Source: Escherichia phage ECML-134. Taken from it: a stretch of 64,000 nucleotides of DNA. The stretch lies in sequence record JX128259, one strand, 5' to 3'. The notes under the pieces were generated by a model. It ran no database searches, had not been told where the DNA came from, and worked only from the letters and a program-made list of their open reading frames with translations. Both the position numbers and the translations under genes were made by a program. Below are positions 4,831-58,804 of this stretch, one piece after another. Position 1 is the first letter of the stretch. Every line of letters starts with the position of its first letter.

Positions 4831-4920
4831 TGGCGGAGGCGATAGGATTTGAACCTATGAGTCGCCGGAGCGACTTCCGGTTTTCAAGACCGGTGCATTA
4901 AACCACTCTGCCACGCCTCC
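4831..4920 (-). tRNA. tRNA-Ser (anticodon TGA), long variable arm
   Basis: manual cloverleaf: acceptor GGAGGCG/CGCCTCC, loop CTTGAAA, long variable arm, CCA. Confidence 0.8.
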
Positions 4921-4926
4921 AAATAT

Positions 4927-5577: not shown

Positions 5578-5581
5578 AAAT

Positions 5582-5655
<74 letters not shown>

Positions 5656-5660
5656 AAATT

Positions 5661-5747
5661 TGGTGCGAGAAGTGGGACTCGAACCCACAAGGAAATCATT
5701 CCGCAGCATTTTAAGTGCTGTGCCTTTACCAATTTGACCATTCTCGC
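5661..5747 (-). tRNA. tRNA-Leu (anticodon TAA), long variable arm
   Basis: manual cloverleaf: acceptor GCGAGAA/TTCTCGC, loop CTTAAAA, long variable arm, CCA. Confidence 0.8.
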
Positions 5748-5748
5748 G

Positions 5749-5821
5749 CTGGGAATAAAGGACTCGAACCTTTGCATCCTGGAATCAAAATCCAGTGCCT
5801 TACCAACTTGGCTAATTCCCA
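5749..5821 (-). tRNA. tRNA-Gln (anticodon TTG), CCA not encoded
   Basis: manual cloverleaf: acceptor TGGGAAT/ATTCCCA, loop TTTTGAT; 3' end abuts tRNA-Leu. Confidence 0.75.
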
Positions 5822-21091: not shown

Positions 21092-22896
21092 TGAAACAAA
21101 ATATTAATATCGGTAATGTTGTAGATGATGGTACCGGTGACTACCTGCGTAAAGGTGGTATAAAAATAAATGAAAACTTTGATGAGCTTTATTACGAGCT
21201 TGGTGATGGAGATGTTCCATATTCAGCCGGTGCCTGGAAAACTTATAATGCTTCATCAGGACAAACATTAACAGCAGAATGGGGAAAATCATATGCCATT
21301 AATACTTCGTCTGGAAGAGTAACTCTACAACTTCCTAAAGGAACTGTTAATGATTACAACAAGGTAATTAGAGCTAGAGACGTATTCGCTACATGGAACA
21401 TCAATCCAGTTACACTAGTAGCTGCTTCCGGAGATACAATTAAAGGGTCGTCATCGTCAGTTGAAATTAATATTCAATTTAGTGATTTAGAGCTCGTTTA
21501 TTGCGCTCCAGGACGCTGGGAGTATGTCAAAAATAAGCAAATTGATAAAATTATTAGTTCAGACATTAGTAATGTAGCTCGTAAAGAATTTTTAGTCGAA
21601 GTTCAAGGGCAAACAGACTTTTTAGATGTTTTTAATGGAACTAGTTATAATGCCAATAACATCAGAGTAAAACATCGTGGTAACGAATTGTATTACGGTG
21701 ATGTATTTAGCGAAAACAGTGACTTTGGCTCTCCGGGCGAAAATGAAGGCGAATTAGTTCCTCTTGATGGATTTAATATTCGATTAAGACAGCCTTGTAA
21801 TATTGGTGACACCGTTCAAATTGAAACATTTATGGATGGTGTATCACAATGGAGAAGTTCATATACAAGACGCCAAATAAAAGTACTGGATTCAAAACTA
21901 ACGTCAAAAACTTCTTTAGAAGGAAGTATTTACGTTACTGATTTATCAACAATGAAATCAATTCCATTCTCTGCATTTGGATTAATTCCTGGAGAACCCA
22001 TTAATCCTAACTCTCTTGAGGTTCGTTTTAATGGAATTTTACAGCAGCAGGCTGGAACAGCTGGATATCCTCTGTTTTTGTGTGAAGGCGCTAATTCAGA
22101 TACGCAAGAAGGATGTATATCTCTTGGTGGCGAATGGAAAGAATCAAACACCGATTATTCTATAGAATATGAAGACGGAAAACCTATCAGTCTTTTATTT
22201 GATAGAAAATTTGAATCCGGTGACATTATCGTTATAACATGGTTCAATAATGATTTAGGAACTCTTTTAGAAAAAGATGACATCATTGAATTGACTGATG
22301 ATCGTTATGTTAGTAAAGGATCATCTACTGAAGTTACTGGTGATGTGGCCTTAACAGATTTTGATAAAATCGGTTGGCCAAATGTTGAAAAAGTTGATTC
22401 TTATACTAGAACGTATAATTCAATATCATCTATTTTCGACAGCATTTATCCTGTTGGTTCAATTTATGAAAATGCTATAAACCCAAATAATCCGGTGACT
22501 TATATGGGATTTGGTTCATGGAAATTATTTGGTAAAGGACAAGTTTTAGTAGGATGGAATGATGATGTTACGGATCCAAACTTTGCTTTAAACAATAATG
22601 ATTTAGATTCTAGCGGAAATCCTTCACATACTGCCGGTGGAACGGTTGGAACAACATCAGTAACGCTTGAAAACGCAAATCTTCCTGCAACTAAAACCGA
22701 CGAAAGAGTTTTAATTGAAGACGAAAATGGATCGGTTATTATTGGAGGTTGCCAATATGACCCAGATGAAACTGGTCCTATATATACAAAATATCGTGAA
22801 GACTACGCAACAACAAACTCTTCACATACTCCTCCTGCTAATATTAGTAATATTCAACCGTCTATTACTGTATACCGTTGGATAAGGATTGCATAA
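21091..22896 (+). CDS. 10: gp10 baseplate wedge protein
   Basis: 601 aa; T4 order and size. Confidence 0.85.
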
Positions 22897-23555
22897 TGAG
22901 TTTACTTAATAATAAAGCGGGAGTTATTTCCCGCTTAGCAGATTTTCTTGGTTTTAGAACTAAGAAAAATGATATTTCGGTTATGAATAATCAGCCAGTA
23001 GGCGCTGTGACAATTTCACAAATAGCAAAAGGTTTTTATGACCCAAATGTAGAATCTGCTATTAATGATGTTAGAAATATGGCAGAGCAACAGGTTGGAG
23101 CTGTATTAGTTAATATAAGCGGCGTATCTCCTACTGGCGTGCAGCAGACAGACTATTGGTCATTTGAAGGAACTGTTACTGATACTTCAGCCAAACCAGG
23201 TGACCCAGTTATTGTTAACATGTTTGGTATTCCAGTTAAAGCTACTAATGGAATGACTTCAATCGAATTCACAAGTGCCGTTAGAACAGCTCTACAGGAA
23301 ATGGTTGCAAAATTTATTGCAATTGATTCATTTGAAGACCATCCTACCATAGGAAATAAAATACAAGTTAAGTATTTAGATAACCAAGAACATATCTTAG
23401 AACAATACTCCGATAAAGGAATTACTTTCAAACAAGAAATAATTTCTCCTTCTAAACCTGGATATGGAACTTGGCAATTATTGGGTGCGCAAACTGTTAC
23501 GCTAGATAGTCACACACAACCTACAGTATTTTATTATTTTGAGAGAATAGCATGA
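22896..23555 (+). CDS. 11: gp11 baseplate protein (short tail fibre attachment)
   Basis: 219 aa from [10 protein letters not shown]; ATGA overlap with the gene 10 stop. Confidence 0.8.
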
Positions 23556-25102
23556 GTAATAATACATATCAGCACGTATCAAATGAATCAAAATATGTTA
23601 AATTCGATCCAGTAGGATCGAATTTTCCTGACACTGTTACGACAGTGCAGTCTGCATTATCAAAAATAAGTAATATTGGCGTAAATGGTATTCCTGATGC
23701 AACTATGGAAGTTAAAGGAATAGCAATGATTGCGTCAGAGCAAGAGGTTTTAGATGGAACTAATAATTCTAAAATCGTTACACCCGCTACATTAGCAACA
23801 AGATTATTGTATCCAAATGCTACTGAAACTAAATATGGTTTAACACGCTATTCAACAAATGAAGAAACGTTAGAAGGCTCAGATAATAATTCATCAATAA
23901 CACCACAAAAACTGAAATACCACACTGACGATGTGTTCCAAAATAGATATTCGTCTGAGTCGTCAAACGGGGTTATTAAAATATCATCTACACCTGCAGC
24001 TTTGGCTGGAGTTGATGATACTACGGCAATGACTCCATTAAAAACCCAAAAACTTGCAATAAAATTAATTTCACAAATAGCTCCTTCCGAAGATACTGCA
24101 TCAGAATCTGTGAGAGGTGTAGTTCAATTATCTACTGTTGCGCAAACTCGTCAAGGAACTCTCCGCGAAGGATATGCAATTTCTCCGTATACCTTTATGA
24201 ATTCTGTTGCAACACAAGAATATAAGGGTGTTATACGTTTAGGAACACAATCGGAAATTAACAGTAATTTAGGAGATGTTGCAGTAACAGGTGAAACATT
24301 AAATGGTCGAGGAGCTACTGGTTCTATGCGTGGAGTAGTTAAATTAACGACGCAAGCCGGTATTGCCCCCGAAGGTGATGGCTCTGGAGCATTAGCATGG
24401 AACGCAGATGTAATTAATACTCGCGGTGGACAAACTATTAACGGTTCTTTAAATTTAGACCATCTTACAGCAAATGGAATTTGGTCACGCGGCGGTATGT
24501 GGAAAAATGGCGATCAACCTGTTGCCACTGAAAGATATGCGTCCGAAAGGGTTCCAGTTGGAACTATTATGATGTTTGCGGGTGATTCTGCACCTCCAGG
24601 TTGGATTATGTGTCATGGTGGAACTGTGTCAGGAGACCAATATCCTGATTATAGAAACACAGTTGGAGCAAGATTTGGTGGTGATTGGAATAACCCCGGC
24701 ATTCCTGATATGAGAGGTCTTTTCGTTAGAGGAGCTGGAACAGGCGGTCATATTTTAAATCAACGAGGACAAGATGGTTACGGGAAGGATAGACTTGGCG
24801 TAGGATGTGACGGAATGCATGTTGGTGGTGTCCAGGCACAACAAATGTCATACCATAAACACGCTGGTGGATGGGGAGAATACCAAAGACATGAAGCTCC
24901 ATTTGGCGCGTCCGTTTATCAAGGATATCTTGGAACTAGAAAATATTCCGACTGGGATAATGCTTCATACTTCACTAATGATGGATTTGAATTAGGTGGA
25001 CCGAGAGATGCCCTTGGTACACTTAATCGTGAAGGATTAATTGGTTATGAAACTAGACCATGGAATATATCATTAAACTATATTATTAAAATTCATTACT
25101 AA
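23552..25102 (+). CDS. 12: gp12 short tail fibre
   Basis: 516 aa; repetitive beta-rich sequence; C-terminal His-rich region [14 protein letters not shown]. Confidence 0.85.
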
Positions 25103-25111
25103 GGATTACAA

Positions 25112-26569
25112 ATGATTGAATTAAAAGATTTACCTTTTGTTGATAGCGTTCCTGGCGAAGGTCAGGAACGTATTTCATGGATTAAAAATGGTGAAGAAAT
25201 ACTAGGAGCTAGTACTAAGTATGGAAACGATGGATCAATGAATAGACCAACTGTTTCTGTGTTTAAAAACGTCGAGGTTCTTGATGAAAATGTGGGAATT
25301 CTTAAAACTGCCATTGAAACATCGCAGAAAGATATTAAAACAATTCAAGGAGTTTTAGATGTATCAGGAGATATAGAAGCACTATCGCAGATCAGTGTTA
25401 ATAAAAATGACATATCAAATTTAAAGACACTTACTAATGAACACACTGATATATTAACTGGAACTAATAATACAGTTGACAAAATTATTGCTGATATAGG
25501 TCCATTTAATGATGAAGAAAATTCTGTTTATAGAACAATTAGAAATGATTTATTGTGGATTAAACAGGAATTAGGACAATATTCTGGCCAAGATATTAAC
25601 GGTCTTCCTGTTGTTGGTAATGCTAGCACAGGAATGAAACACAGAATAATAACAAATAGTACATTATTATCTTCACAAGGCATTCGTTTAAGCGAATTAG
25701 AAAATAAATTTACTGAATCTGACGTAGGATCATTAACTGTTGAAGTTGGTAAATTACGTGATGAACTTGGTAATAAACCGGTAGATTTTGGACCAAATAT
25801 TTATAATAGATTAAACACTATAGATGATAAACAAACTTTAATAAATTCTGATATAGCAGAAATTAAATCTTCTATTGGATACCCAGAAAATGTTTCTATA
25901 ATAACAGAAATTAATAATAACAAAAGTAGCATTGAATCTATTAATAATGAATTAAATCAGAGTGAAGGTGTTAAACAGCGCTTAACGGCTATTGAAACTT
26001 CTATAGGTTCAGATGATATTCCTTCTAGTATTAAAGGAAAAATTAAAAATCACACAACTTCTATTGAGTCTTTAAACGGAATTGTTGGTGAAAACACTTC
26101 GTCTGGTTTAAGAGCGAATGTTTCGTGGTTAAATCAAATTGTTGGAACTGACTCCAGCGGAGGACAACCGTCTCCTTCTGGATCTCTATTAAATAAAGTT
26201 TCAGTGCTTGAAGGAGAAGTTTCAGTTTTAAACAATAATGTTCAAAATATACAAGTTGAAATAGGAAATAATAGAACAGGAATTAAAGGTCAAGTTATTG
26301 AACTTACTTCACTTATAAATGGAAATAATCCTGACGGATCAACTGTTGAAGAACGAGGATTAACTAATTCTGTAAAAACGAATGAAACCAACATTGCGGC
26401 AGTCACACATGAAGTAAATACAGCTAAAGACAATATATCCTCTTTACAGAGCAGCGTTCAAGCTCTACAAGAAGCAGGTTATATTCCTGAAGCTCCAAAA
26501 GATGGCCAAGCTTACGTTCGTAAAGACGGCGAATGGGTACTACTTTCTACCTTTTTATCACCAGCATAA
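25112..26569 (+). CDS. wac: fibritin (whisker) with C-terminal foldon
   Basis: 485 aa coiled-coil repeats; C-terminal foldon [27 protein letters not shown]. Confidence 0.9.
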
Positions 26570-33530: not shown

Positions 33531-34136
33531 GTGATTATTTCTAAGTTTGTTACAATAAAACCAAGAAATCATTCAAAAATGTGGTCGACAATTCTGGGAT
33601 ATAAAGTATCATATCATGATACAGTATCTGTTCCAATAGAATTAATGCCAAAGAATAGTAATAAAATAGTTGACGCTAAATGTGATTTGTGTGGTATTAA
33701 ATTTAGTAGAAGCATTCAGCTTTTAAATAGAACACCAACGCATGCATGTAGAAAATGTAGCATTAAACAAGTTGCTATTAAAAATTCGGAAGTTCAATCT
33801 GGAATAAGTAGACCATGGCAAAGAGGTGATAAACATCCTCGATGGACTGGTAAAAGAAAAGAGTTTGCATTATATGCTAGTAGAGTTCATTCTATAACTA
33901 AGTCAGCTAAAATAAGAAAAATCTGGTCAAAATGGCCAAATGCTGATAAAATAGGAGTGTGTGGCGTAGAAGGTGCTTACCAACTCGATCATAAAGTATC
34001 TATCAAATATGGATTTGATAATTTAATTCCGCCGGAAATTATAGCAAGCGTAAAAAATTTAGAAATAATCACTTGGGAATCTAACCGAGAAAAGTCAAAA
34101 AGAAATAGCGTAGATCTTTGGGATTTACTAGAATGA
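33531..34136 (+). CDS. HNH-family homing endonuclease (Mob-like) inserted between genes 18 and 19
   Basis: 201 aa; possible GTG start with GAGG upstream; Cys4 pattern CDLC...CRKC; HNH-like motif LDHKVSIKYGFDNL...N...WESNREK. Confidence 0.6.
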   Translation: MIISKFVTIKPRNHSKMWSTILGYKVSYHDTVSVPIELMPKNSNKIVDAKCDLCGIKFSRSIQLLNRTPTHACRKCSIKQVAIKNSEVQSGISRPWQRGDKHPRWTGKRKEFALYASRVHSITKSAKIRKIWSKWPNADKIGVCGVEGAYQLDHKVSIKYGFDNLIPPEIIASVKNLEIITWESNREKSKRNSVDLWDLLE

Positions 34137-38562: not shown

Positions 38563-40128
38563 ATGACTATCAAAACTAAAGCTGAACTTTTGAACAAATG
38601 GAAGCCATTACTGGAAGGTGAAGGTTTACCGGAAATTGCTAATAGCAAACAAGCGATTATCGCTAAAATCTTTGAAAACCAGGAAAAAGATTTCCAGACA
38701 GCTCCAGAGTACAAAGACGAAAAAATCGCTCAGGCGTTCGGTTCTTTCTTAACAGAAGCTGAAATCGGCGGTGACCACGGTTACAATGCTACTAACATCG
38801 CTGCTGGTCAGACTTCTGGCGCAGTAACTCAGATTGGCCCAGCTGTTATGGGTATGGTACGTCGTGCTATTCCTAACCTGATTGCTTTCGATATTTGCGG
38901 TGTTCAGCCGATGAACAGCCCGACTGGTCAGGTATTCGCACTGCGCGCAGTATATGGTAAAGACCCAATCGCTGCCGATGCTAAAGAAGCATTCCACCCA
39001 ATGTATGGTCCAGATGCAATGTTCTCTGGTCAGGGTGCTGCTAAGAAATTCCCAGCTCTGGCTGCTAGCACACAAACCGTTGTAGGTGATATCTATACTC
39101 ACTTCTTCCAGGAAACTGGTACTGTGTATCTGCAGGCTTCCGCTGTAGTAACAATCGATGCTAGTGCATCTGACGCAGCTAAATTAGATGCTGAAATTAA
39201 GAAACAAATGGAAGCTGGCGTACTGGTAGAAATCGCTGAAGGTATGGCTACTTCTATCGCTGAACTTCAGGAAGGTTTCAACGGTTCTACCGATAACCCA
39301 TGGAATGAAATGGGCTTCCGTATCGATAAACAAGTTATCGAAGCTAAATCTCGTCAGCTGAAAGCTGCTTACTCTATCGAATTAGCACAAGACCTCCGCG
39401 CTGTTCACGGTATGGATGCTGATGCTGAACTGTCTGGTATTCTGGCTACCGAAATCATGCTGGAAATCAACCGTGAAGTTGTTGATTGGATTAACTACTC
39501 AGCTCAGGTTGGTAAATCTGGTATGACCCTGACTCCAGGTTCTAAAGCTGGTGTATTTGACTTCCAGGATCCGATTGATATTCGTGGTGCTCGCTGGGCG
39601 GGTGAATCCTTTAAAGCTCTGTTGTTCCAGATTGACAAAGAAGCAGTTGAAATTGCTCGTCAGACCGGTCGTGGTGAAGGTAACTTCATTATCGCTTCCC
39701 GTAACGTAGTTAACGTTCTGGCTTCAGTTGATACCGGCATTTCTTATGCTGCACAGGGTCTGGCTACCGGCTTCAACACTGATACTACCAAGTCAGTATT
39801 TGCTGGTGTTCTGGGTGGTAAATACCGCGTATATATCGACCAGTATGCTAAACAGGATTATTTCACTGTAGGTTATAAAGGTCCGAACGAAATGGATGCT
39901 GGTATTTACTATGCTCCATATGTAGCTCTGACTCCACTGCGTGGTTCCGATCCGAAGAACTTCCAACCGGTAATGGGATTCAAAACTCGTTACGGTATCG
40001 GTATCAACCCATTTGCAGAATCCGCTGCTCAGGCTCCGGCTTCTCGCATCCAGAGCGGTATGCCTTCTATTCTGAATAGCCTTGGTAAAAACGCTTACTT
40101 TAGACGTGTATATGTTAAAGGTATCTAA
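38563..40128 (+). CDS. 23: gp23 major capsid protein
   Basis: 521 aa; T4 order and size; E. coli-like codon usage typical of a highly expressed gene. Confidence 0.9.
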   Translation: MTIKTKAELLNKWKPLLEGEGLPEIANSKQAIIAKIFENQEKDFQTAPEYKDEKIAQAFGSFLTEAEIGGDHGYNATNIAAGQTSGAVTQIGPAVMGMVRRAIPNLIAFDICGVQPMNSPTGQVFALRAVYGKDPIAADAKEAFHPMYGPDAMFSGQGAAKKFPALAASTQTVVGDIYTHFFQETGTVYLQASAVVTIDASASDAAKLDAEIKKQMEAGVLVEIAEGMATSIAELQEGFNGSTDNPWNEMGFRIDKQVIEAKSRQLKAAYSIELAQDLRAVHGMDADAELSGILATEIMLEINREVVDWINYSAQVGKSGMTLTPGSKAGVFDFQDPIDIRGARWAGESFKALLFQIDKEAVEIARQTGRGEGNFIIASRNVVNVLASVDTGISYAAQGLATGFNTDTTKSVFAGVLGGKYRVYIDQYAKQDYFTVGYKGPNEMDAGIYYAPYVALTPLRGSDPKNFQPVMGFKTRYGIGINPFAESAAQAPASRIQSGMPSILNSLGKNAYFRRVYVKGI

Positions 40129-40154
40129 TCTCTAACGATAGAAACACAATTTTA

Positions 40155-40178
40155 GGGAGCCTTCGGGCTCCCTTTTTC
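40155..40178 (+). terminator. intrinsic terminator after gene 23
   Basis: GGGAGCC-TTCG-GGCTCCC hairpin followed by TTTTT. Confidence 0.7.
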
Positions 40179-40849
40179 TATTTTATACGATAGCAATCAG
40201 GCATATCATCCGCATTTATCCAATTGCGAATAGTTTTAGGACTAACTTTAAAATGCTCCGCTGCGTAATCAGGATTATCAAATTTAACGCCCTTTATACA
40301 TATTGGAATAAATTTTTTAATACCACCAAGTTTTTCAGAAATAGCTTTACGATGTGAAATCGATATAGGTTTATTTTTTCGTGGATGAACATGTGTTTTA
40401 TAATATTCATTGCGCCCTTTAACTCGCTTCGCAATAGTTTCATCAGATTGCTTAACGCCTGTTTTTGCCTTTGATATTTTTCGTTTAGCTTCCACAGTCA
40501 TTCCTTCTTTTGTTCGTATTGATAACATATTACGATATGAAGGATCTTGCAAATGAACTATAACTGGATTTCCTCTGCCACCAATAGCAGCATTATAGGT
40601 ATCAGTTCTCATAACGAATTCCTCATTGACTAGTAAAGCTTCCATTTTATACATCTCCTCAGATGAGGAGAAAGAATAAAGAATTTCTTTTTTAAAGTTA
40701 TGAATACCATATTTTTTGATGGATTTTTTGATGTTTACGCCAGAACCCATATAACCATCGTTTTCGTCAAGAGTAGCATGAGCTCCGATGTAAATTTTTC
40801 CATTGATGATATTAGTAATTTGATATATTAAATATTTCATTTTAAACAT
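40178..40849 (-). CDS. segD: GIY-YIG homing endonuclease (SegD-like)
   Basis: 223 aa from MFKMKY; GIY-YIG module YLIYQITNIINGKIYIGAHA; sits between genes 23 and 24 on the opposite strand. Confidence 0.8.
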   Translation of the reverse strand: MFKMKYLIYQITNIINGKIYIGAHATLDENDGYMGSGVNIKKSIKKYGIHNFKKEILYSFSSSEEMYKMEALLVNEEFVMRTDTYNAAIGGRGNPVIVHLQDPSYRNMLSIRTKEGMTVEAKRKISKAKTGVKQSDETIAKRVKGRNEYYKTHVHPRKNKPISISHRKAISEKLGGIKKFIPICIKGVKFDNPDYAAEHFKVSPKTIRNWINADDMPDCYRIK

Positions 40850-40904
40850 CGCTCCGTTTGTATATGAATATAATATCATATTACTTTGGTCTTGTAAATA
40901 ACTT

Positions 40905-40912
40905 TATAAATA
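40905..40912 (+). promoter_or_regulatory. late promoter TATAAATA for gene 24
   Basis: exact TATAAATA 28 nt upstream of the ATG at 40940. Confidence 0.55.
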
Positions 40913-40939
40913 GTATTATATTTCAACAAGGAAAATACA

Positions 40940-42223
40940 ATGGCTAAAATCAACGAACTTCTGCGCGAATCAACAACAACGAATAGCAACTCAATCGGTC
41001 GCCCAAATCTCGTTGCTTTGACTCGCGCTACCACTAAATTAATATATTCTGACATTGTAGCAACGCAAAGAACTAATCAACCTGTTGCTGCTTTTTATGG
41101 TATCAAATACCTTAACCCAGACAATGAATTTACATTTAAAACTGGTGCTACTTACGCTGGCGAAGCTGGATATGTAGACCGAGAACAAATCACAGAATTA
41201 ACAGAAGAGTCTAAATTAACTCTCAATAAAGGCGATTTATTCAAATATAATAATATCGTTTATAAAGTATTAGAAGATACTCCATTTGCTGATATTGAAG
41301 AAAGCGATTTAGAATTAGCTCTTCAGATTGCAATTGTTCTTTTAAAGGTTCGTCTATTTTCTGACGCAGCGTCAACAAGCAAATTTGAAAGCTCTGATAG
41401 CGAAATTGCGGATGCTAGATTCCAGATTAATAAATGGCAAACCGCAGTTAAATCTCGTAAACTTAAAACTGGTATCACAGTTGAATTAGCACAAGATTTA
41501 GAAGCAAATGGATTCGATGCTCCTAATTTCTTGGAAGATTTGCTTGCAACTGAAATGGCGGATGAAATTAATAAAGATATTCTGCAGTCTTTGATTACAG
41601 TATCAAAACGCTATAAAGTTACAGGAATTACTGATAGTGGATTCATCGATTTGAGTTATGCATCTGCTCCTGAAGCTGGTCGTTCATTATACCGAATGGT
41701 ATGTGAAATGGTTTCGCATATCCAAAAAGAATCAACTTATACAGCAACGTTCTGTGTTGCTTCAGCTCGTGCTGCTGCGATTCTTGCTGCATCAGGTTGG
41801 TTAAAACATAAACCAGAAGATGATAAATATCTTTCACAAAATGCCTACGGGTTCTTAGCTAATGGTTTACCGCTTTATTGCGATACTAACAGCCCATTAG
41901 ATTATGTAATCGTTGGCGTAGTAGAAAATATCGGTGAAAAAGAAATTGTTGGTTCAATTTTCTATGCTCCGTATACAGAAGGTCTTGACTTAGATGACCC
42001 TGAACATGTGGGTGCATTTAAAGTTGTTGTTGATCCAGAAAGCTTACAACCGTCTATCGGTTTATTAGTTAGATATGCTTTATCAGCAAATCCTTATACT
42101 GTAGCAAAAGATGAAAAAGAAGCAAGAATAATTGACGGTGGAGACATGGATAAAATGGCAGGTCGTTCAGATTTGTCTGTTTTATTAGGTGTTAAATTAC
42201 CAAAAATTATTATTGATGAATAA
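40940..42223 (+). CDS. 24: gp24 capsid vertex protein
   Basis: 427 aa; gp23-like fold; T4 order. Confidence 0.85.
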   Translation: MAKINELLRESTTTNSNSIGRPNLVALTRATTKLIYSDIVATQRTNQPVAAFYGIKYLNPDNEFTFKTGATYAGEAGYVDREQITELTEESKLTLNKGDLFKYNNIVYKVLEDTPFADIEESDLELALQIAIVLLKVRLFSDAASTSKFESSDSEIADARFQINKWQTAVKSRKLKTGITVELAQDLEANGFDAPNFLEDLLATEMADEINKDILQSLITVSKRYKVTGITDSGFIDLSYASAPEAGRSLYRMVCEMVSHIQKESTYTATFCVASARAAAILAASGWLKHKPEDDKYLSQNAYGFLANGLPLYCDTNSPLDYVIVGVVENIGEKEIVGSIFYAPYTEGLDLDDPEHVGAFKVVVDPESLQPSIGLLVRYALSANPYTVAKDEKEARIIDGGDMDKMAGRSDLSVLLGVKLPKIIIDE

Positions 42224-42229
42224 AGCAAA

Positions 42230-42251
42230 GGGACCTTTCGGTCCCTTTTTA
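42230..42251. terminator. terminator hairpin between convergent gene 24 and rnlB
   Basis: GGGACC-TTTCGG-TCCC hairpin followed by TTTTT. Confidence 0.6.
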
Positions 42252-42252
42252 T

Positions 42253-43257
42253 TTAACTTACCAATTCAATCCAAGCCGGACGAAGTACATCTTGTACCAT
42301 TTTAACTAATTCCTTCTTAATCAAAGAAGGATTATCCGCTTGAGTTAGAATAATACCTTCACGAGAAGTTTCTTCCAAAATATCTTGAACAGTTAGTCCC
42401 ATCACCTTTCCAAAATCTTTAGGACCAATTTCGCCAATTTTAGAAATAACGTTATTTACCCGGTTCAGTGTAACGTAACAAGCTAAAATCCCCACCAATT
42501 TGTTATCAGCTTCTGACAGTTCAACTTTAGCTTTAATAGGCTTATCAGACTTTTTCTTTTCACTAAATTTAGAGTTCTTGCATTTAATCGCCACACGATT
42601 GCGATTAGGCAGCCAAGAAGGATAACAAGGTTTCAATACATATCCTTCAGCAGTAAATACTTCGCCTTTTGCTTCGGCATTCCAAATGCATTTATTTGCA
42701 TCAACTAATCCGGCATGGTCTACTGTAAAATTATAATCTTGGACGACAGAATCTAAATCATTTGGCAATTTAATAAGCTCTTCAAATTTACCGCGACCTA
42801 AAAGTGGAGCCATTTTAAATTTAAACGTATTACAGAATGATTCCATCATATAATCATCGACATAAGTCACATCACCACTTTCTGTAGTAACAATAATGTC
42901 AAATACATAAAAATCTTTATCACCATAATCGACATTCTTCTGAATGCCAGGTCCAGCAAATTCGCCAAAGACTTGATAAGATACAACTGCCGAAGTTTCC
43001 ATAATATCTTGTACTGCTTTAATGGAATCAGCGTAATTCTTTAGAATAATTTCATACCCAAAGAAATCTTCAGCAGGAAGAATAGGACCAGTACGTTTAG
43101 CGCAAGTCACTTTATCGCGTTCAATAATCAGTGAGAAATTTGTGCCATGAATCTTTTCACGAGCTACCCATTCGCCGCCAGTCAATCCTAAGCTGTAAAG
43201 TTTTTCAATGAATTTAGAATTGTAATGATTTTCAAGACTGCTATACTTTTTAAACAT
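42253..43257 (-). CDS. rnlB: RNA ligase 2 (RnlB)
   Basis: 334 aa; nucleotidyltransferase motif KIHGTNF; T4 order. Confidence 0.85.
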
Positions 43258-43266
43258 AATTAATCC

Positions 43267-43545
43267 TCAAAATGTAATTTCTAACCAATCACCATCACGC
43301 TGATCGCTATTGACTTTAAAGCTAAATCCTTCTTTTCTCAGCCAATCACCAATTTCTTCAGTAATCAATTTATCGCGAGCAGTACAATAATAATTAAAAT
43401 GTGTTTTACCTTGTTCAGCTGCTTTATTAGCAAGTTCCGAAAAATCTTTAATAAAGCACTCTAGTTTAAACTGTTTACTTTTGAATGCTTTTTCGCGTAA
43501 TTGATTAGCAAAAGATTCATTTTCATAAAGATCATACTGTTCCAT
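43267..43545 (-). CDS. hypothetical protein (24.2-like)
   Basis: 92 aa ORF. Confidence 0.6.
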   Translation of the reverse strand: MEQYDLYENESFANQLREKAFKSKQFKLECFIKDFSELANKAAEQGKTHFNYYCTARDKLITEEIGDWLRKEGFSFKVNSDQRDGDWLEITF

Positions 43546-43747
43546 TTTTCACCTTTTTATTGATATGTCTTTTTCTATAGACAACTTTTTCTCGAGTTTC
43601 AAATTTATTCTTAGCAGTCATAGCTCGAGCCCATAATACAGCCACTTCTTTCGCCTGTAAGTTTAATTCACGAGCAATTTCAATGAATGACTTTCCAGAC
43701 TCATGAAGAGTAAACACCACAACCTCAGTTCTCATAATCAATCTCAT
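43532..43747 (-). CDS. small helix-turn-helix-like protein (24.3-like)
   Basis: 71 aa basic ORF. Confidence 0.55.
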   Translation of the reverse strand: MRLIMRTEVVVFTLHESGKSFIEIARELNLQAKEVAVLWARAMTAKNKFETREKVVYRKRHINKKVKNGTV

Positions 43748-43836
43748 GTTATCGAGTTGGTGCCATTATATACATCATTTTCTGAGTGTGTTTTGTGTGC
43801 TTTTAAAATGAAGAAAGGGGCCGAAGCCCCTTATGA

Positions 43837-44967
43837 TTATGGATAGGTATAGATGATACCAGTTTCTAAAGCAGTTTTATGAATGATATATCCATTACGT
43901 GATTCTTGGACATCAACTTCTGGATAGTCTTTCATCATCTTCTGAAGAGTGTAACGATGCAGGTAGTATTTACTATCTGGATCTTCAGTTTTCCAATCTT
44001 TACCTTCTTCAGTCATTTTTTGGATTTCATCCATAACCCACCAACCGCACTAGATGTAAGCTGAGCTACGGTGTGGAAGAGGATGAACATAAGGTAATTC
44101 ACCTTCTGGTTCTGGAGCAACTTTATCAGTTACCTGAACTTGACCTGTGGCTTTAACTGTTTTACTATCATAGTCAGTTGCTGTAACGACAGCAGTAACT
44201 TCAATAGTTTGACTTCCAATAGATGAGGTATCAACAGTATATACGTTAGTTGACCCTTCCACAGGAGAAGAATCTTTCTTCCATGAGTAAGTAATTTGTG
44301 CTGCTTCAGGTGCGCCAGTAACATTAGCAGTAAATGTAGCCGAAGTATCTTGCTGAACATTAATAGAAGGAGGAGTCAATGTAACCTGTGGATTCATTGT
44401 CTTCTTATTAACTGTCAATGATACTTCATTGGAAGTAACTTCTTTTGCATCATAATCTGTCGCGGTTACTTGAGCCACACACTTAATTGTTTTAACTCCG
44501 CTTGTGGTAGGAGTGTAATTGAATGTAGCAGAAGTTGCTTCGCCCACAGGAGAACCGTCAACGTACCATTGATACGTAGCAGATGCACCTGGTGGCTGCG
44601 AAGCTAAGGCAGCGGTAAATTCAATAGCTGTTCCAATTACTCCAGCGTCAGGGCTATTAGGAGTTACAGCTAGGGTAGTCGTTTGTGTCTTATTTTGAAC
44701 TGTGATAGTTGTAGAAGCTTCTGCTGTTTCAGCTTCAGCTTCTGGAACTGGGTTTGTTGCAACTACTTTAATAGTCTTTTGACCGGCAGGTCCTTTTAGT
44801 ACATAGCTAAAAGTTGCTGACGTTTCTTCCTGCGGAGCGTCGTCTACAGTCCAAGCATATGTAATAGGTCCATCTCCAGTTTGACCACTGGGTGTAGCAG
44901 TAAACTGCTGAGTCTGATCTATAACTCCAGTAGGTGTTTTAGGAGTTATATCAACGGTAAAAGCCAT
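43837..44967 (-). pseudogene. hoc: hoc (outer capsid decoration protein) interrupted by an in-frame TAG stop
   Basis: 305-aa Ig-like N-terminal ORF (44050..44967) and 65-aa C-terminal ORF (43837..44034) are in one frame, separated by TAG (plus 44050-44052) plus 5 codons; total 376 codons. Confidence 0.7.
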
Positions 44968-44976
44968 AAGTTATCC

Positions 44977-45657
44977 TTATTTTAATGTTATGAAAGAAGA
45001 ATTGCGTGTTTCACGAATTAGAACTGATCCGTCACGATTAATGTAGTAAATTAAGCTAAATAAAGTTTGGTGTGCCGACGCGTGTTCAAAACTAGTTGGG
45101 TGAGATTTCCAATCCGGAGTTTCAGCAATCCACTGGTAAATCCACCAAGGAACAGTGCAGAATCCTGGATTTTTTCCAATCAGCTGAAGATTCGGACTAA
45201 AGTTTTCCGGAAGAGTAAATACAGACGGCTTTTCAGATTCAATAATCTCAGCTACAGCCTGTTCGAATTTTTCTTCAACAAAAGGAGTATCTTCAATCAA
45301 AACATCGGTATTTTCAGGAATTTTATCCGTTTCTATGACTTCAATTTTAATGTCAGATTTAACCGGAGAATCAATCAGAAGTGCTGCTTCTGGATTGACT
45401 TCTTCATCGTCATATTTTAATCCCTCTGCAGCATCTGCAGCATCGATTAAGTCTTTAATAGATAACCCATCAGTCTCTGGCATAGGTTCACTAGCGAGCT
45501 TCTGGAGGGCTTCTTCAATATCAATAACGATATTATCAAAAGATTTATTCTTTTTGACCTTTATACCAAACTGTTCAGCATATTCAGCTAATTTAGCTTT
45601 AGCTTCTTTATTATCATCAAGAGCCTTCAACTCTGCAATATAATCTTTATCTATCAT
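44977..45657 (-). CDS. inh: Inh, inhibitor of prohead protease
   Basis: 226 aa; T4 order (hoc-inh-segE). Confidence 0.75.
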   Translation of the reverse strand: MIDKDYIAELKALDDNKEAKAKLAEYAEQFGIKVKKNKSFDNIVIDIEEALQKLASEPMPETDGLSIKDLIDAADAAEGLKYDDEEVNPEAALLIDSPVKSDIKIEVIETDKIPENTDVLIEDTPFVEEKFEQAVAEIIESEKPSVFTLPENFSPNLQLIGKNPGFCTVPWWIYQWIAETPDWKSHPTSFEHASAHQTLFSLIYYINRDGSVLIRETRNSSFITLK

Positions 45658-45670
45658 AATATTTCCTCAG

Positions 45671-45678
45671 TATAAATA
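45671..45678 (+). promoter_or_regulatory. late promoter TATAAATA upstream of segE
   Basis: exact TATAAATA 28 nt upstream of the ATG at 45707. Confidence 0.45.
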
Positions 45679-45706
45679 TAGATATATTTATTACTCGGAA
45701 AATAGT

Positions 45707-46324
45707 ATGTACCACTTTGTATATGAAACAACAAATCTAATAAATGGTAAAAAGTATATAGGAAAACACTCTACTGATGACTTGAATGATGGTTACCTTG
45801 GTTCCGGTAAGGCAATTCAGCAGGCTATAAAGAAGTATGGTGAAAACAATTTCTCTAGAACAATACTAAAAGAGTTTAAAACTTCCGAAGAAGCGTACAT
45901 GTATGAAGAAGAAATTATAACTCCTGAAATAATAAAAAGCAAAAATTATTATAATATGAAACCTGGTGGAATTGGTGGAATTGTTATGACTACAGAGGTT
46001 ATAGCAAAGATGAAAGAATCTTCCGCTAAGAGATTTGAAAACTCACCGGGCACGGTATTAGGTACAACTTGTTACACTAATGGAACTAAAAATATTTTTA
46101 TTAAACCTGGAGAACTTGTTCCAGAAGGATTTGTAAAAGGGATGGTTCATCCTAATAGAAAGTCCAGAAAAGGATGTAAAGTCAAACCGACTACCACAGG
46201 AACTTTTTGGGTCAATAATGGCGCAATAAATAAATTAATACAACCAGACGGTATTATTCCCGACGGATTTATTAAAGGTCGTCTCATGAAAAGAGATTCT
46301 AAAGGCAAATTTAGTAAGGCATAA
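45707..46324 (+). CDS. segE: GIY-YIG homing endonuclease (SegE-like)
   Basis: 205 aa; GIY-YIG module FVYETTNLINGKKYIGKHS; between inh and uvsW. Confidence 0.8.
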   Translation: MYHFVYETTNLINGKKYIGKHSTDDLNDGYLGSGKAIQQAIKKYGENNFSRTILKEFKTSEEAYMYEEEIITPEIIKSKNYYNMKPGGIGGIVMTTEVIAKMKESSAKRFENSPGTVLGTTCYTNGTKNIFIKPGELVPEGFVKGMVHPNRKSRKGCKVKPTTTGTFWVNNGAINKLIQPDGIIPDGFIKGRLMKRDSKGKFSKA

Positions 46325-46326
46325 TT

Positions 46327-47835
46327 ATGGATATTAAAGTACATTTTCACGACTTCAGTCATGTACGCATCGATTGTGAAGAGAGCACGTTCCACGAATT
46401 AAGAGATTTCTTTTCGTTTGAGGCCGATGGATATAGATTTAATCCTCGCTTCAGATATGGCAACTGGGATGGACGAATCCGTCTTTTAGATTATAATCGC
46501 CTTCTTCCGTTCGGCTTAGTTGGGCAAATTAAAAAGTTCTGTGATAACTTTGGCTATAAAGCCTGGATTGACCCACAAATTAACGAAAAAGAAGAATTAT
46601 CAAGAAAAGATTTTGATGAATGGCTTTCTAAATTAGAAATCTATTCAGGAAATAAAAGAATTGAACCACATTGGTATCAAAAAGATGCAGTGTTCGAAGG
46701 ATTAGTTAATCGTCGCAGAATTCTTAATCTTCCAACATCCGCAGGTAAATCTTTAATTCAAGCTTTGCTTGCTCGGTATTATTTGGAAAATTATGAAGGT
46801 AAAATTCTTATCATTGTTCCAACAACTGCTCTAACAACTCAGATGGCTGATGACTTTGTTGACTATCGTTTATTCAGTCATGCAATGATAAAGAAAATCG
46901 GTGGCGGAGCATCAAAAGATGATAAATATAAAAATGATGCACCAGTCGTTGTTGGTACATGGCAAACTGTAGTAAAACAACCAAAAGAATGGTTCTCACA
47001 GTTTGGAATGATGATGAATGATGAATGCCATCTTGCTACAGGAAAAAGTATTTCATCTATCATATCAGGTTTAAATAACTGCATGTTCAAATTCGGTTTG
47101 TCTGGTTCATTACGAGATGGCAAAGCCAATATCATGCAGTATGTTGGAATGTTTGGTGAAATATTTAAGCCAGTAACGACTTCTAAATTAATGGAAGATG
47201 GACAAGTAACTGAGCTAAAAATTAATAGTATTTTTCTTCGCTATCCCGATGAGTTCACTACTAAATTAAAGGGAAAAACTTACCAAGAAGAAATAAAAAT
47301 TATTACTGGGCTTAGTAAAAGAAATAAATGGATCGCTAAATTAGCTATTAAGCTTGCGCAAAAAGATGAAAACGCTTTTGTCATGTTTAAACATGTATCG
47401 CATGGTAAAGCTATTTTCGATTTAATTAAAAATGAATACGATAAAGTTTATTACGTATCAGGGGAAGTTGATACCGAAACCCGCAATATAATGAAAACCT
47501 TAGCTGAAAATGGTAAAGGAATAATTATAGTAGCGAGTTATGGCGTATTTTCTACTGGTATTTCAGTTAAAAATCTGCATCACGTTGTTTTAGCGCACGG
47601 TGTTAAATCAAAAATCATTGTATTACAAACAATCGGTCGTGTATTACGTAAGCATGGTTCTAAAACAATCGCAACGGTCTGGGACCTCATAGATGATTGT
47701 GGTGTTAAGCCAAAATCTGCTAATACGAAAAAGAAATATGTTCATTTGAACTATCTTTTAAAACACGGCATTGATCGTATTCAGCGCTACGCAGATGAAA
47801 AATTTAATTACGTAATGAAAACAGTTAATTTATAA
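46327..47835 (+). CDS. uvsW: UvsW helicase
   Basis: 502 aa; Walker A LPTSAGKS and DECH box. Confidence 0.85.
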   Translation: MDIKVHFHDFSHVRIDCEESTFHELRDFFSFEADGYRFNPRFRYGNWDGRIRLLDYNRLLPFGLVGQIKKFCDNFGYKAWIDPQINEKEELSRKDFDEWLSKLEIYSGNKRIEPHWYQKDAVFEGLVNRRRILNLPTSAGKSLIQALLARYYLENYEGKILIIVPTTALTTQMADDFVDYRLFSHAMIKKIGGGASKDDKYKNDAPVVVGTWQTVVKQPKEWFSQFGMMMNDECHLATGKSISSIISGLNNCMFKFGLSGSLRDGKANIMQYVGMFGEIFKPVTTSKLMEDGQVTELKINSIFLRYPDEFTTKLKGKTYQEEIKIITGLSKRNKWIAKLAIKLAQKDENAFVMFKHVSHGKAIFDLIKNEYDKVYYVSGEVDTETRNIMKTLAENGKGIIIVASYGVFSTGISVKNLHHVVLAHGVKSKIIVLQTIGRVLRKHGSKTIATVWDLIDDCGVKPKSANTKKKYVHLNYLLKHGIDRIQRYADEKFNYVMKTVNL

Positions 47836-47848
47836 GGGCTTCGGCCCT

Positions 47849-48091
47849 TTGGAGAAAAAGATGTTACTAGAATTTAAACAATTTCTTTATGAAGCTTCTA
47901 TTGATGAATTTATGGGTAAAATTGCCTCTTGTCAAACATTAGAAGGTTTAGAAGAACTTGAAGCTTATTATAAGAAAAGAGTTAAAGAAACTGAATTAAA
48001 AGATACTGATGACATCTCTGTAAGAGATGCTTTGGCAGGAAAAAGAGCTGAATTAGAAGATTCAGACGATGAAGTAGAAGAAAGCTTTTAA
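47849..48091 (+). CDS. uvsW.1: UvsW.1-like small acidic protein
   Basis: 80 aa ORF directly after uvsW. Confidence 0.65.
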   Translation: MEKKMLLEFKQFLYEASIDEFMGKIASCQTLEGLEELEAYYKKRVKETELKDTDDISVRDALAGKRAELEDSDDEVEESF

Positions 48092-56740: not shown

Positions 56741-58804
56741 CTACATCTTGAACTTTTTAGACATTCCGTTGATGTTAACCAAAGAAGCTAAGATTTGAGA
56801 AACTTCGTTTTCCTCTTCTTTTGATTCTTCTACAAGGAATTGATTAAATCCAGCCATTGGACGAACTTCACCAGTTTCCATTAGATGGTCTCCATCATAT
56901 ACTGATTCTTCTAATTGTTCAGAAGGAGGAACGATTGTACCTTCGATTAGATACTTGTTATAAGCAGTTTCTTTCATAAAGTACGTACTTACTTTATTAA
57001 TCTTCAGTAAAATTCCACGCGGTAGAATAACTTCAGCTTCTGATGGAAATCCTGATAAATGACCTGGAACGATAACTTTGATTCGCTCAGCTCCTTTAAT
57101 TACCATACCCACGCTAGTTTCAGCATCTTCATTGGCATATGTAGAATGACTACCCATATGCATTAAATCTTCTGCATCAACGGAACCTTCTCCTTCGCCA
57201 GAAAATACTGCGCCGGAATCATCTAGAGCCATATAGTTTTTACCATGCTCACCGAAGATATTTGGTTTAAGTGATGTCGATACGAAGTTCTTGAAATAGA
57301 ACATTTTATTTTCAATGTTATGACGCAAAGTTTTAAAGGTAACTTCTTGTCCACGGTAAAGTGTAGTTCCTGGAGGAAGAACTGATCCTTTGGCAAAGGC
57401 AGAATCTAACGTCTCGATGTGCTTAATAGCTCGTTCCATGTATTCTTCACGGGTAGAATCTGGTTTACCCAAAAGGAACGAGTTCATTTCAACATATGAA
57501 TCTGCACAATAATCTTCAATTACATCAGATTCAGCCTGAGTCAGTCCTTTTGGAGTTACTTCGGTGCTTGCGTATTCATATGCCTGAGCAGCAGATTCAT
57601 TAATCAATTTATAAATGCCATTCATTACAAATTGAATAATAGCTGTCTTTTCATCTGACGTAGCTTTAGAACCTTTAACTAAATCATTGATAATTTTCTT
57701 AATAACATCAAAGCTATTAGAAATATTAATGTCAGCAAGATCGCTTAAAATTTTATCAGTTTTATAATCAAAGAATTCTTTATTCTTTAAATATTCTTGA
57801 GAACCTTGATATGTTATATCGCTCTGCAGCTTGATAGATGGATCGCGTAAACGTGCATGGGCTAATGCAATATGATTTCGGAAACTTTCTAGTTCATAAT
57901 CATTAGATTTAAAACGAGAAGCACTTCTCATACCACCGATAGCTCCTTTGCTGAAGTTTGAACCAATCTGGATAACGCCAGAGTTCATTGGTCCTTCTGC
58001 TTTATATACCGGAACTTTAGATTCAAACTCTTGATATTTCTTGGCAGCGAAGCTATCACCCTGAAGTGAAGCATCAACAGTAGAATATTGAGCTTGTGCT
58101 GCTAATCGACGACTAATTTTAGTTTTCTGAATAACAGCTTGATCAGTGCGCTTATCATTTTCTAAAGCAATAGAAGCAGCAACAGCGACAGCTTTAGGAA
58201 CAGCATTACCTGTTTTAACGTCTACATAAACATCACCAACCTTTGATTCAACTTTTGTGAATAACTCAGTTGAAATAGGAGGTACACCTGGAATGTCTTC
58301 TAAATTGGCATTTTTACGGTAAACCATAATATATGCATACTTTTTATCGTAATCCCAGAGTTCCTTAAGAAGGACGTATCTGCCACCTGAACGACTACGG
58401 ATAAGTCTATCAGCAATAACTTGAATTTGTCGAGCTTGGCCAGCAGTTTTAGACTTAAGAATACGAAGCATACAAGCATCAATTTTATATTGACGCATTG
58501 TTTGCATTGCAACAGTAAAAACTGAATTGATATAATTAATTGGGCTTGGACCAAGACCTTTTAATTTAGCAATTGAACCTTTAGCAGTTAATGTAAAAGG
58601 AACAATATGCATCATTTTGTCGCCCATTTTTAAATCGCGATTAGTATCACCTCCAGATGTATAGGTACATAAACGAAAGCCTGGTTGTTCAATTGCATCA
58701 TCAACATGAACTGAAAAAATTTGTGGTATTTTCTTCTTTGGATTTAAGTTTGTAATCGGAAGAGTAGTATCTTCGTCAAATAATTCTGTAATGAGTTCCA
58801 TCAT
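56741..58804 (-). CDS. alt: Alt, capsid-packaged ADP-ribosyltransferase
   Basis: 687 aa; position between gene 54 and gene 30 as in T4. Confidence 0.75.
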   Translation of the reverse strand: MMELITELFDEDTTLPITNLNPKKKIPQIFSVHVDDAIEQPGFRLCTYTSGGDTNRDLKMGDKMMHIVPFTLTAKGSIAKLKGLGPSPINYINSVFTVAMQTMRQYKIDACMLRILKSKTAGQARQIQVIADRLIRSRSGGRYVLLKELWDYDKKYAYIMVYRKNANLEDIPGVPPISTELFTKVESKVGDVYVDVKTGNAVPKAVAVAASIALENDKRTDQAVIQKTKISRRLAAQAQYSTVDASLQGDSFAAKKYQEFESKVPVYKAEGPMNSGVIQIGSNFSKGAIGGMRSASRFKSNDYELESFRNHIALAHARLRDPSIKLQSDITYQGSQEYLKNKEFFDYKTDKILSDLADINISNSFDVIKKIINDLVKGSKATSDEKTAIIQFVMNGIYKLINESAAQAYEYASTEVTPKGLTQAESDVIEDYCADSYVEMNSFLLGKPDSTREEYMERAIKHIETLDSAFAKGSVLPPGTTLYRGQEVTFKTLRHNIENKMFYFKNFVSTSLKPNIFGEHGKNYMALDDSGAVFSGEGEGSVDAEDLMHMGSHSTYANEDAETSVGMVIKGAERIKVIVPGHLSGFPSEAEVILPRGILLKINKVSTYFMKETAYNKYLIEGTIVPPSEQLEESVYDGDHLMETGEVRPMAGFNQFLVEESKEEENEVSQILASLVNINGMSKKFKM

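What the first reader, a model, noticed from the sequence alone, without database searches (positions are those of the whole stretch)
43837..44967. hoc is split by a single in-frame TAG stop, with an ATG five codons downstream
The 305-codon N-terminal ORF ends ...HRSSAYI-TAG and the same frame continues CGWWV-MDEIQK... into the 65-codon C-terminal ORF; together they make 376 codons, the T4 Hoc length. This looks like a point nonsense change rather than a deletion. It would yield a truncated Hoc lacking the C-terminal part, and the downstream ATG could allow separate expression of that part. Hoc is non-essential, so this may be a natural or laboratory hoc-minus state, or amber read-through in a suppressor host.
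Basis: partly seen in the sequence, partly recalled or inferred. Interest (0 to 1): 0.6.

Follow-up and report, generated by a model that had tools for sequence, protein, structure and literature searches.

The report
Amber stop codon inside phage hoc
The head-decoration gene hoc of this T4-like phage, identified here as ECML-134 from a commercial food-safety cocktail, carries one G-to-A change that turns tryptophan 306 into a stop codon, which most likely leaves the capsid without Hoc; this is an ordinary loss-of-function mutation in a dispensable gene.

Summary
On the minus strand, hoc (44967..43837) is one 376-codon frame broken by a single TAG at 44052..44050. It aligns with T4 Hoc 1-376 without gaps, and the TAG replaces TGG (Trp306).

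The window is Escherichia phage ECML-134 (JX128259), bases 64001-128000. GenBank and RefSeq already annotate the two pieces as separate CDSs.

[quoted passage not shown] The 305-aa product keeps the three Ig-like domains but loses the helix bundle, strands 3-4 and the ESRNG loop. It should not attach to capsids.

No other sequence carries a stop here (about 590 other alleles checked). TAG is a normal stop elsewhere in the window, and none of the nine phage tRNAs is a suppressor. hoc is the only one of about 85 T4-homologous genes here with a new in-frame stop.

The one other record with this TAG (vB_EcoM_SCS4) is a consensus built on the ECML-134 reference, so it is not independent support.

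Best explanation: a real, recent hoc-null amber allele, of the same kind as T4 HAP1. A sequencing error, rescue by suppression, and reinitiation at Met312 remain minor or untested options. Interest is low.

The parts
44050..44967 (-). hoc 5' ORF. It has 305 codons plus the premature TAG and encodes the three Ig-like domains and the first 25 residues (281-305) of the capsid-binding domain.
   Evidence: Pfam Ig_3, I-set and PKD hits. PHROG 1149, Hoc-like head decoration. The exact product equals AFO10703.1 / YP_009102652.1 of phage ECML-134.
44050..44052 (-). Amber codon TAG replacing TGG (Trp306 of T4 Hoc). The mutated base is at 44051.
   Evidence: alignment with four relatives. (only 1 of 548 phage records has this exact 70-mer). 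(0 TAA/TAG against 44 TGG in viral and metagenome contigs).
44035..44049 (-). Five in-frame codons (CGWWV) between the stop and Met312. They contain a GGTGG(G) Shine-Dalgarno-like run at 44042..44037. The sequence is identical to T4's.
   Evidence: Duplex with the 16S 3' end is -5.4 kcal/mol, against a median of -5.8 for 35 annotated starts in the window.
43837..44034 (-). hoc 3' ORF. It has 65 codons (residues 312-376) plus TAA and encodes the remainder of the capsid-binding domain. Its amino-acid sequence is identical to intact relatives.
   Evidence: PHROG 21694 and 1149. The exact product equals AFO10702.1 / YP_009102651.1 of ECML-134.
43815..43832 (-). GC-rich hairpin followed by a T run just after the hoc stop codon. 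It is the likely terminator of the inh-hoc transcript, so both pieces lie on one mRNA.
   Evidence: A terminator is annotated at the same place in phage ASO78A.
45685..45692 (-). AATAAATA, one mismatch from the T4 late-promoter consensus TATAAATA, upstream of inh. It is the inferred promoter of the inh-hoc late transcript.
   Evidence: An equivalent 1-mismatch late promoter is annotated in ASO78A. Inference only.

Best explanation
A genuine, evolutionarily recent G-to-A transition changed codon 306 of hoc from TGG (Trp) to TAG in the sequenced stock of phage ECML-134.

In a non-suppressing host, translation stops at codon 306 and releases a roughly 32-kDa protein (approximate mass from its 305 residues). 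This protein has the three Ig-like domains and only strands 1-2 of the capsid-binding domain. It lacks Trp306, Trp309, Trp310, the three-helix bundle, strands 3-4 and the Glu355-Gly359 loop, so it cannot dock in the gp23* hexamer. Virions are therefore Hoc-less, or nearly so.

The phage remains fully viable because Hoc is dispensable.

Shown: the mutation, its uniqueness, its position inside the domain, the lack of a phage suppressor tRNA, and normal use of TAG as a stop. Inferred: loss of capsid binding and the Hoc-less phenotype.
For: - The TGG to TAG change is the only difference from T4 in 70 bases. The gene is colinear with T4 Hoc 1-376.
- T4 structure: the capsid-binding domain is residues 281-376, a four-stranded sheet plus a three-helix bundle. 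Trp306 sits on the docking sheet and helix 1 starts at Trp309/310. Mutations in loop 355-359 impair binding (PMC10385173).
- Residues 281-305 and 307-376 are identical in amino acid sequence to the intact Hoc proteins P0039 and P0040. There is no decay after the stop, so the event is recent.
- The stop is unique. One of 548 GenBank phage records has the exact 70-mer. TAA/TAG at this codon occurs 0 times against TGG 20 times in IMG/VR and 24 times in metagenome contigs.
- In 67 of 67 distant representatives the region homologous to the 65-aa piece is the C-terminal end of a longer protein, with no boundary at 306-312.
- A gene-by-gene tblastn of about 85 T4 genes shows an in-frame stop only in hoc and at the known uvsW/uvsW.1 junction. 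There are no frameshifts, so the assembly is clean.
- TAG ends 6 other annotated genes in the window. The 9 phage tRNAs have wild-type anticodons and none is CUA.
- Precedents: hoc amber or deletion nulls are viable (PMC3012670). The spontaneous T4 mutant HAP1 (hoc Q166 ochre) lacks Hoc on the capsid (PMC10580926).
Against: - Only one primary record supports the base. The second record with the TAG (SCS4) is not independent.
- No reads are available. The exact 305-aa product occurs only in the two NCBI records and in no assembly built from a public sequencing run.
- Absence of Hoc from ECML-134 virions has never been measured. No held paper mentions both ECML-134 and Hoc.
- Low-level read-through, or propagation on a suppressor host, could still place some full-length Hoc on capsids.
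Confidence: 0.8

Rival explanations
1. Base-call or assembly error in the ECML-134 record: the real phage has TGG and an intact 376-codon hoc.
For: There is a single primary record, sequenced by 2012, with no reads accessible. The only other record with the TAG copies the reference in this block. Some other deposited T4-like genomes have hoc lesions that look like sequencing artefacts. Examples are BYEP02, which also has a split rnlB, and the UNVERIFIED record OQ031495.
Against: The lesion is a substitution outside any homopolymer. The rest of the 64-kb window shows no frameshift or stop in about 85 conserved genes. A random error would have to land in, and make a stop in, one of the best-known dispensable genes. 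Real nonsense mutations are filtered by selection into exactly such genes.
Confidence: 0.1
2. Conditional allele: full-length Hoc is restored to a useful level by amber suppression in the propagation host (supE gives Gln, supF gives Tyr) or by near-cognate read-through. Virions would then carry some or all of their Hoc.
For: Position 306 tolerates exactly these residues in nature. Among 50 diverse Hoc homologues it is W in 40, Y in 4 and Q in 2. PMC10385173 does not list Trp306 among the highly conserved contact residues. Hoc binds with high affinity, so even sparse product would bind.
Against: The phage encodes no suppressor tRNA. TAG is the working stop of 6 other genes in the window. The production and isolation hosts are E. 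coli O157:H7-type strains, and I know of no suppressor in them (own knowledge, not tested). No read-through signal is known, and the stop is not conserved in any relative.
Confidence: 0.07
3. Functional split: ribosomes that terminate at UAG306 reinitiate at AUG312, 15 nt downstream. The phage would then make a free Ig-domain protein plus a 65-aa C-terminal fragment with some role, such as plugging the hexamer centre or reassembling with the N-terminal piece.
For: There is an SD-like GGTGG with near-typical pairing energy before AUG312. The stop-to-start distance is short, and reinitiation efficiency falls with distance (PMC9841429). Gene callers repeatedly call this 65-aa ORF, and PHROG 21694 is a family of such fragments.
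Against: The ATG and the SD-like run are ancestral coding sequence (GWWVM), identical in T4, with no adaptation. Met312 is only 30 of 50 conserved, being L, I, F or V elsewhere, so it is an internal hydrophobic residue and not a start. The fragment lacks Tyr293, His295, Arg300, Tyr304, Trp306, Trp309 and Trp310 and half of the sheet. No relative has a stand-alone 65-aa homologue. The other '65-aa' calls come from contig ends or unrelated lesions.
Confidence: 0.03

Closest known systems
T4 HAP1 (T4 delta-Hoc), a spontaneous hoc nonsense mutant (C496T, Gln166 to ochre)
   Same: A single transition creates a premature stop in hoc. The phage is viable and virions lack Hoc (PMC10580926).
   Different: The codon (306 rather than 166) and the stop type (amber rather than ochre) differ. 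Here the three Ig-like domains are still translated and only the anchor domain is cut. It occurs in an environmental or commercial T4 relative, not in T4 itself. The phenotype has not been measured.
Classical T4 hoc amber and deletion mutants (Ishii and Yanagida 1977; the hoc- soc- display strains)
   Same: These are null alleles of a dispensable decoration gene with no effect on production, viability or infectivity (PMC3012670).
   Different: Those were isolated or engineered deliberately in T4. This allele sits in the deposited genome of a production phage and is annotated only as two CDSs.
Other disrupted hoc genes in deposited T4-like genomes and contigs
   Same: They show sporadic, non-conserved lesions of the same gene. 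IME537 has a frameshift near codon 158. A Logan contig of ERR4622920 has a -1 shift in the A6 run at codons 315-317. An ENA contig has Glu286 to stop.
   Different: Each lesion is at a different site. None shares the Trp306 amber, and several may be sequencing artefacts.
Natural Hoc length variants (282, 376, 472 and 568 aa; up to 1,174 aa in phage Muldoon)
   Same: The same gene family shows modular change in the number of Ig-like domains (PMC10385173).
   Different: Those variants keep an intact C-terminal capsid-binding domain in one ORF. Here the anchor domain itself is interrupted.

Membership tests
hoc (T4 highly immunogenic outer capsid protein gene) | Full-length colinear homology to T4 Hoc | tested here: met
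   residues 1-376 align to 1-376 of PDB 5vf3 chain Z with no gaps, E = 4.8e-211; 86% amino-acid identity by tblastn.
hoc (T4 highly immunogenic outer capsid protein gene) | Conserved position between inh and gene 24.3, on the same strand | tested here: met
   the order rnlB, 24.2, 24.3, hoc, inh, segE, uvsW is the same as in T4.
hoc (T4 highly immunogenic outer capsid protein gene) | [quoted passage not shown] | tested here: met
   Pfam Ig_3, I-set and PKD hits. PHROG 1149 and 21694. The C-terminal domain differs from T4 by one residue apart from the stop.
hoc (T4 highly immunogenic outer capsid protein gene) | Single uninterrupted reading frame | tested here: not met
   TAG at codon 306. It is therefore a disrupted allele of hoc, not a functional member.
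Simple nonsense (null) allele of a dispensable gene | The stop arises by one substitution and is absent from relatives | tested here: met
Simple nonsense (null) allele of a dispensable gene | The stop codon is read as a stop in this genome, with no recoding and no cognate suppressor tRNA | tested here: met
   TAG ends 6 other annotated genes. The 9 tRNAs include no CUA anticodon. Rfam finds only those tRNAs.
Simple nonsense (null) allele of a dispensable gene | The protein is missing from the virion | not testable with these tools
   This needs SDS-PAGE, mass spectrometry or ELISA of ECML-134 particles.
Programmed stop-codon read-through or recoding site | The in-frame stop is conserved among relatives | tested here: not met
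   The stop occurs in 0 of 547 other phage records (exact 70-mer), 0 of 20 IMG/VR contigs and 0 of 24 metagenome contigs.
Naturally split (two-gene) Hoc | A gene boundary at or near residue 306-312 in homologues | tested here: not met
   In 67 of 67 representatives clustered at 50% identity, the homologous 65 residues are the C-terminus of a longer protein. The alignment is continuous through positions 288-320.

The most novel reading that the evidence does not exclude
The Trp306 amber allele is maintained rather than accidental. Inefficient termination or suppression at UAG306 would give a tunable, sub-stoichiometric Hoc coat, together with abundant free Ig-domain protein acting as a soluble decoy or adhesin, possibly with a reinitiated 65-aa anchor fragment. 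This would be a regulated decoration state and not a null. It would gain weight if the SCS4 phage from Kazakhstan really carries the same allele.
Probability: 0.04. Interest if true: 0.55.

Novelty: new member of a known kind. Interest (0 to 1): 0.2.

Why it matters
Scientifically this is routine. Hoc nonsense mutants have been known since the 1970s, and the split is already visible as two CDSs in GenBank and RefSeq.

The practical point is that ECML-134 is one of the three phages of EcoShield, a preparation cleared for use on food (PMC3530527).

If its capsids lack Hoc, several consequences follow.
- It lacks the most immunogenic T4-type surface protein.
- It lacks the Ig-like fibres implicated in mucus and cell-surface adherence and in particle dispersion (PMC10385173, PMC7602432).
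- It offers about 155 empty high-affinity sites per head that could be loaded in vitro with Hoc fusions.

The finding is also a cautionary example. The only apparent second occurrence (SCS4) turns out to be reference sequence carried into a consensus genome.

Tried and rejected
1. SCS4 as independent confirmation: rejected.
- The window and ON506924 differ by 1,217 substitutions, 0 indels and 49 single Ns over 64 kb. The two genomes have identical lengths.
- The longest identical run, 39937-46331, spans segD to segE including hoc.
- Just past it, SCS4 carries the uvsW 5' sequence typical of phages that lack segE (98% identical to ASO78A and FT, 86% to ECML-134 and T4). It nevertheless lacks their extra codon and keeps the reference's length.
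- The block is therefore most likely reference fill.

2. Phage-encoded suppressor tRNA: none found.

3. Genome-wide TAG reassignment: rejected, because TAG ends 6 other genes.

4. Natural gene boundary: rejected.

5. Other '65-aa Hoc fragments' in the protein collection: these trace to contig ends, an N-run, a frameshift or a different stop, not to this allele.

6. Direct retrieval of the ECML-134 record: it is not in the phage collection. The window's identity was instead established from exact protein matches.

7. Sathaliyawala 2010 (PMC2909354), the paper reporting Hoc binding-site mutagenesis, is not held. I relied on its summary in PMC10385173.

8. Structure prediction was not run, because a cryo-EM model of the nearly identical T4 domain is published.

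Full report
**What is there**

On the minus strand, an ORF of 305 codons (44967..44053) ends ...HRSSAYI. It is followed by TAG at 44052..44050. The same frame continues CGWWV and reaches ATG at 44034. That ATG opens a 65-codon ORF ending in TAA at 43839..43837. Read through, the frame is 376 codons. It aligns residue for residue with T4 Hoc, 1-376 to 1-376, with no gaps (E = 4.8e-211). A DNA alignment with T4 and three other T4-like phages shows TGG (Trp306) wherever the window has TAG. This is the only difference from T4 in the surrounding 70 bases.

**Where the window comes from**

The 305-aa and 65-aa products are exact matches to two CDSs of Escherichia phage ECML-134 (AFO10703/AFO10702; RefSeq YP_009102652/YP_009102651) and of phage vB_EcoM_SCS4. 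The window's gp12 product occurs exactly only in ECML-134. The window differs from the SCS4 record by 1.9%, which matches the 98.17% identity that the SCS4 authors report to ECML-134 (PMC9697832).

The window is therefore ECML-134 (JX128259), bases 64001-128000. ECML-134 is one of the three phages of the EcoShield food-safety cocktail (PMC3530527). The split is thus already present in public annotation. No held paper mentions both ECML-134 and Hoc.

**Is the stop special or shared?**

- Among 548 GenBank phage records matching the 70-mer, only SCS4 is identical.
- A degenerate pattern requiring TAA or TAG at this codon finds nothing in IMG/VR, the metagenome collection or the genome collection. 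The same pattern with TGG finds 20, 24 and 0.
- A search of 1.84 billion representative proteins with the 65-aa piece returns 67 homologues. In all of them the piece is the C-terminal end of a longer protein.
- An alignment of 50 of these is continuous across positions 288-320.

The site is therefore not a natural gene boundary, and the stop is not conserved.

**Where the stop falls in the protein**

In the published T4 model, residues 281-376 form the capsid-binding domain. [quoted passage not shown] Tyr293, His295, Tyr304, Trp306, Gln354 and Tyr360 on the sheet contact gp23*, as do Trp309 and Trp310 at the start of helix 1. Mutations in the Glu355-Gly359 loop impair binding (PMC10385173).

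Termination at codon 306 leaves three Ig-like domains (Pfam hits) plus strands 1-2 only. I infer that this product cannot bind capsids.

Residues 281-305 and 307-376 are identical to those of the intact relatives P0039 and P0040. Nothing has decayed since the mutation, so it is recent.

**Is the stop read as a stop?**

TAG terminates six other annotated genes in the window, against 59 TAA and 14 TGA. The phage tRNA cluster (4419-5821) holds nine tRNAs, all with ordinary anticodons and none CUA. There is no sign of recoding or of a phage-borne suppressor.

If a host suppressor were present, Gln (supE) or Tyr (supF) would be inserted. Both residues occur naturally at position 306 in distant Hoc homologues (W 40, Y 4, Q 2, R 2, V 2 of 50). 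Suppressed protein would therefore probably work.

**Is it real or an error?**

Reads are not available, and the exact product is absent from all assemblies built from public sequencing runs.

Indirect evidence favours a real mutation. Across about 85 T4 genes with homologues in the window, tblastn finds an in-frame stop only in hoc and at the uvsW/uvsW.1 junction. That junction is the normal arrangement: the identical 502-aa UvsW occurs on 109 contigs. There are no frameshifts. The lesion is a substitution outside any homopolymer, and it lies in a gene whose null mutants are fully viable (PMC3012670).

The SCS4 record cannot be counted as confirmation.
- It has the same length as ECML-134, with no indels and 49 isolated Ns over 64 kb.
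- Its longest identical run (39937-46331) covers segD through segE, including hoc.
- Immediately beyond, it carries the uvsW 5' sequence of phages that lack segE (98% identical to ASO78A and FT, where inh abuts uvsW). Yet it is missing their extra codon, so the reference length is preserved.

That is the signature of a consensus forced onto the ECML-134 reference, with uncovered stretches filled from it.

**Downstream ATG**

AUG312 lies 15 nt after the stop. It is preceded by GGTGG, whose pairing with the 16S 3' end (-5.4 kcal/mol) is close to the median of 35 real starts in the window (-5.8). Reinitiation after termination is favoured by short distances (PMC9841429). Some 65-aa product is therefore plausible.

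However, this sequence is simply the ancestral codons for GWWVM and is identical in T4. Met312 is L, I, F or V in 20 of 50 homologues. The fragment also lacks half the sheet and seven contact residues. I regard a function as unlikely.

Both pieces lie on one transcript. It is bounded by a near-consensus late promoter upstream of inh (45692..45685) and a hairpin terminator (43832..43815).

**Comparison with what is known**

The closest known case is T4 HAP1, a spontaneous hoc ochre mutant that lacks Hoc on the capsid (PMC10580926). The classical hoc amber and deletion strains are also close.

Other deposited T4-like sequences carry unrelated hoc lesions.
- IME537 has a frameshift near codon 158.
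- One assembly built from a public run has a -1 shift in the A6 run at codons 315-317.
- One metagenome contig has Glu286 to stop.

hoc disruption is therefore sporadic and not site-specific.

**Verdict**

This is a real feature, correctly read by the first stage. It is a new allele of a well-known kind, namely a loss-of-function nonsense mutation in a dispensable decoration gene. My confidence that it is a true mutation giving Hoc-less virions is about 0.8. Sequencing error is about 0.1, and rescue by suppression or a functional split together about 0.1.

Interest is low. The main value is practical, because it concerns the surface composition of a commercial phage. There is also a methodological caution about the SCS4 record.

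Noticed in passing
window 39937-46600; ON506924.1 (loci L034 and L035): The GenBank genome of vB_EcoM_SCS4 looks like a consensus forced onto the ECML-134 reference. It has the same length, no indels, 1,217 substitutions and 49 single Ns over 64 kb. Long blocks are identical, including segD to segE. Next to them sits a uvsW 5' end of the type found in phages that lack segE, but without their extra codon. Parts of that record, including its hoc and segE, may not belong to the phage that was sequenced.
   Followed up: yes
L029 2481-2488 = OQ031495.1 (UNVERIFIED, Escherichia phage MRostami-2023e): This record has an 8-base run of N exactly over hoc codons 305-307, the same spot as the amber codon here. 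It has a second N-run of 62 bases earlier in hoc. The record has many defects, including a split rnlB, so this is probably a coincidence. It remains unexplained.
   Followed up: partly
window 4419-5821 (minus strand): The tRNA cluster holds nine genes: Arg, Asn, Tyr, Met(CAT), Thr, Ser, Gly, Leu and Gln. T4 has eight. Here Asn and Tyr are extra and Pro is missing. A 216-aa GIY-YIG/NUMOD3 Seg-like ORF (4927-5577) sits between tRNA-Ser and tRNA-Gly, a different place from segB in T4. The SCS4 paper lists 0 tRNAs although its record is identical here.
   Followed up: partly
window 33531-34136 (+): A 201-aa ORF lies between the tail sheath (gp18) and tail tube (gp19) genes, where T4 has only a short spacer. 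It matches PHROG 5104 (unknown function) and, weakly (E = 4e-4), a homing-endonuclease PHROG. It has no Pfam hit. It is probably a mobile insertion.
   Followed up: partly
window 2862-3425 and 3551-4024 (minus strand): Two adjacent paralogous ORFs (187 and 157 aa) both match PHROG 2280 (unknown function). They lie between e.8 and the tRNA cluster and have no counterpart among the T4 genes compared.
   Followed up: no
window 21091-26569 and 56741-58801: There is a sharp mosaic pattern relative to T4. Neighbouring structural genes are 98-100% identical in protein. By contrast gp10 is 85%, gp11 68%, gp12 63%, fibritin 78% and Alt only 49% identical. The alt.-1/alt.-2 remnants are not separate genes here.
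   Followed up: no
window 46327-48091 (+): uvsW is a 502-codon ORF followed by a separate 76-codon uvsW.1. The T4 RefSeq entry used for comparison annotates one 587-codon gene. The identical 502-aa product is found on 109 contigs, so the two-gene form is the common one.
   Followed up: partly
L062 (Logan ERR4622920 contig), L032 (ERZ27277148 contig), L003 (IME537), PHROG 21694: Other independent hoc lesions exist: a -1 shift in the A6 run at codons 315-317, Glu286 to stop, and a frameshift near codon 158. PHROGs even holds a 66-position family made of stand-alone Hoc C-terminal fragments. Disrupted hoc genes recur in deposited T4-like sequences. How many are real is unknown.
   Followed up: partly
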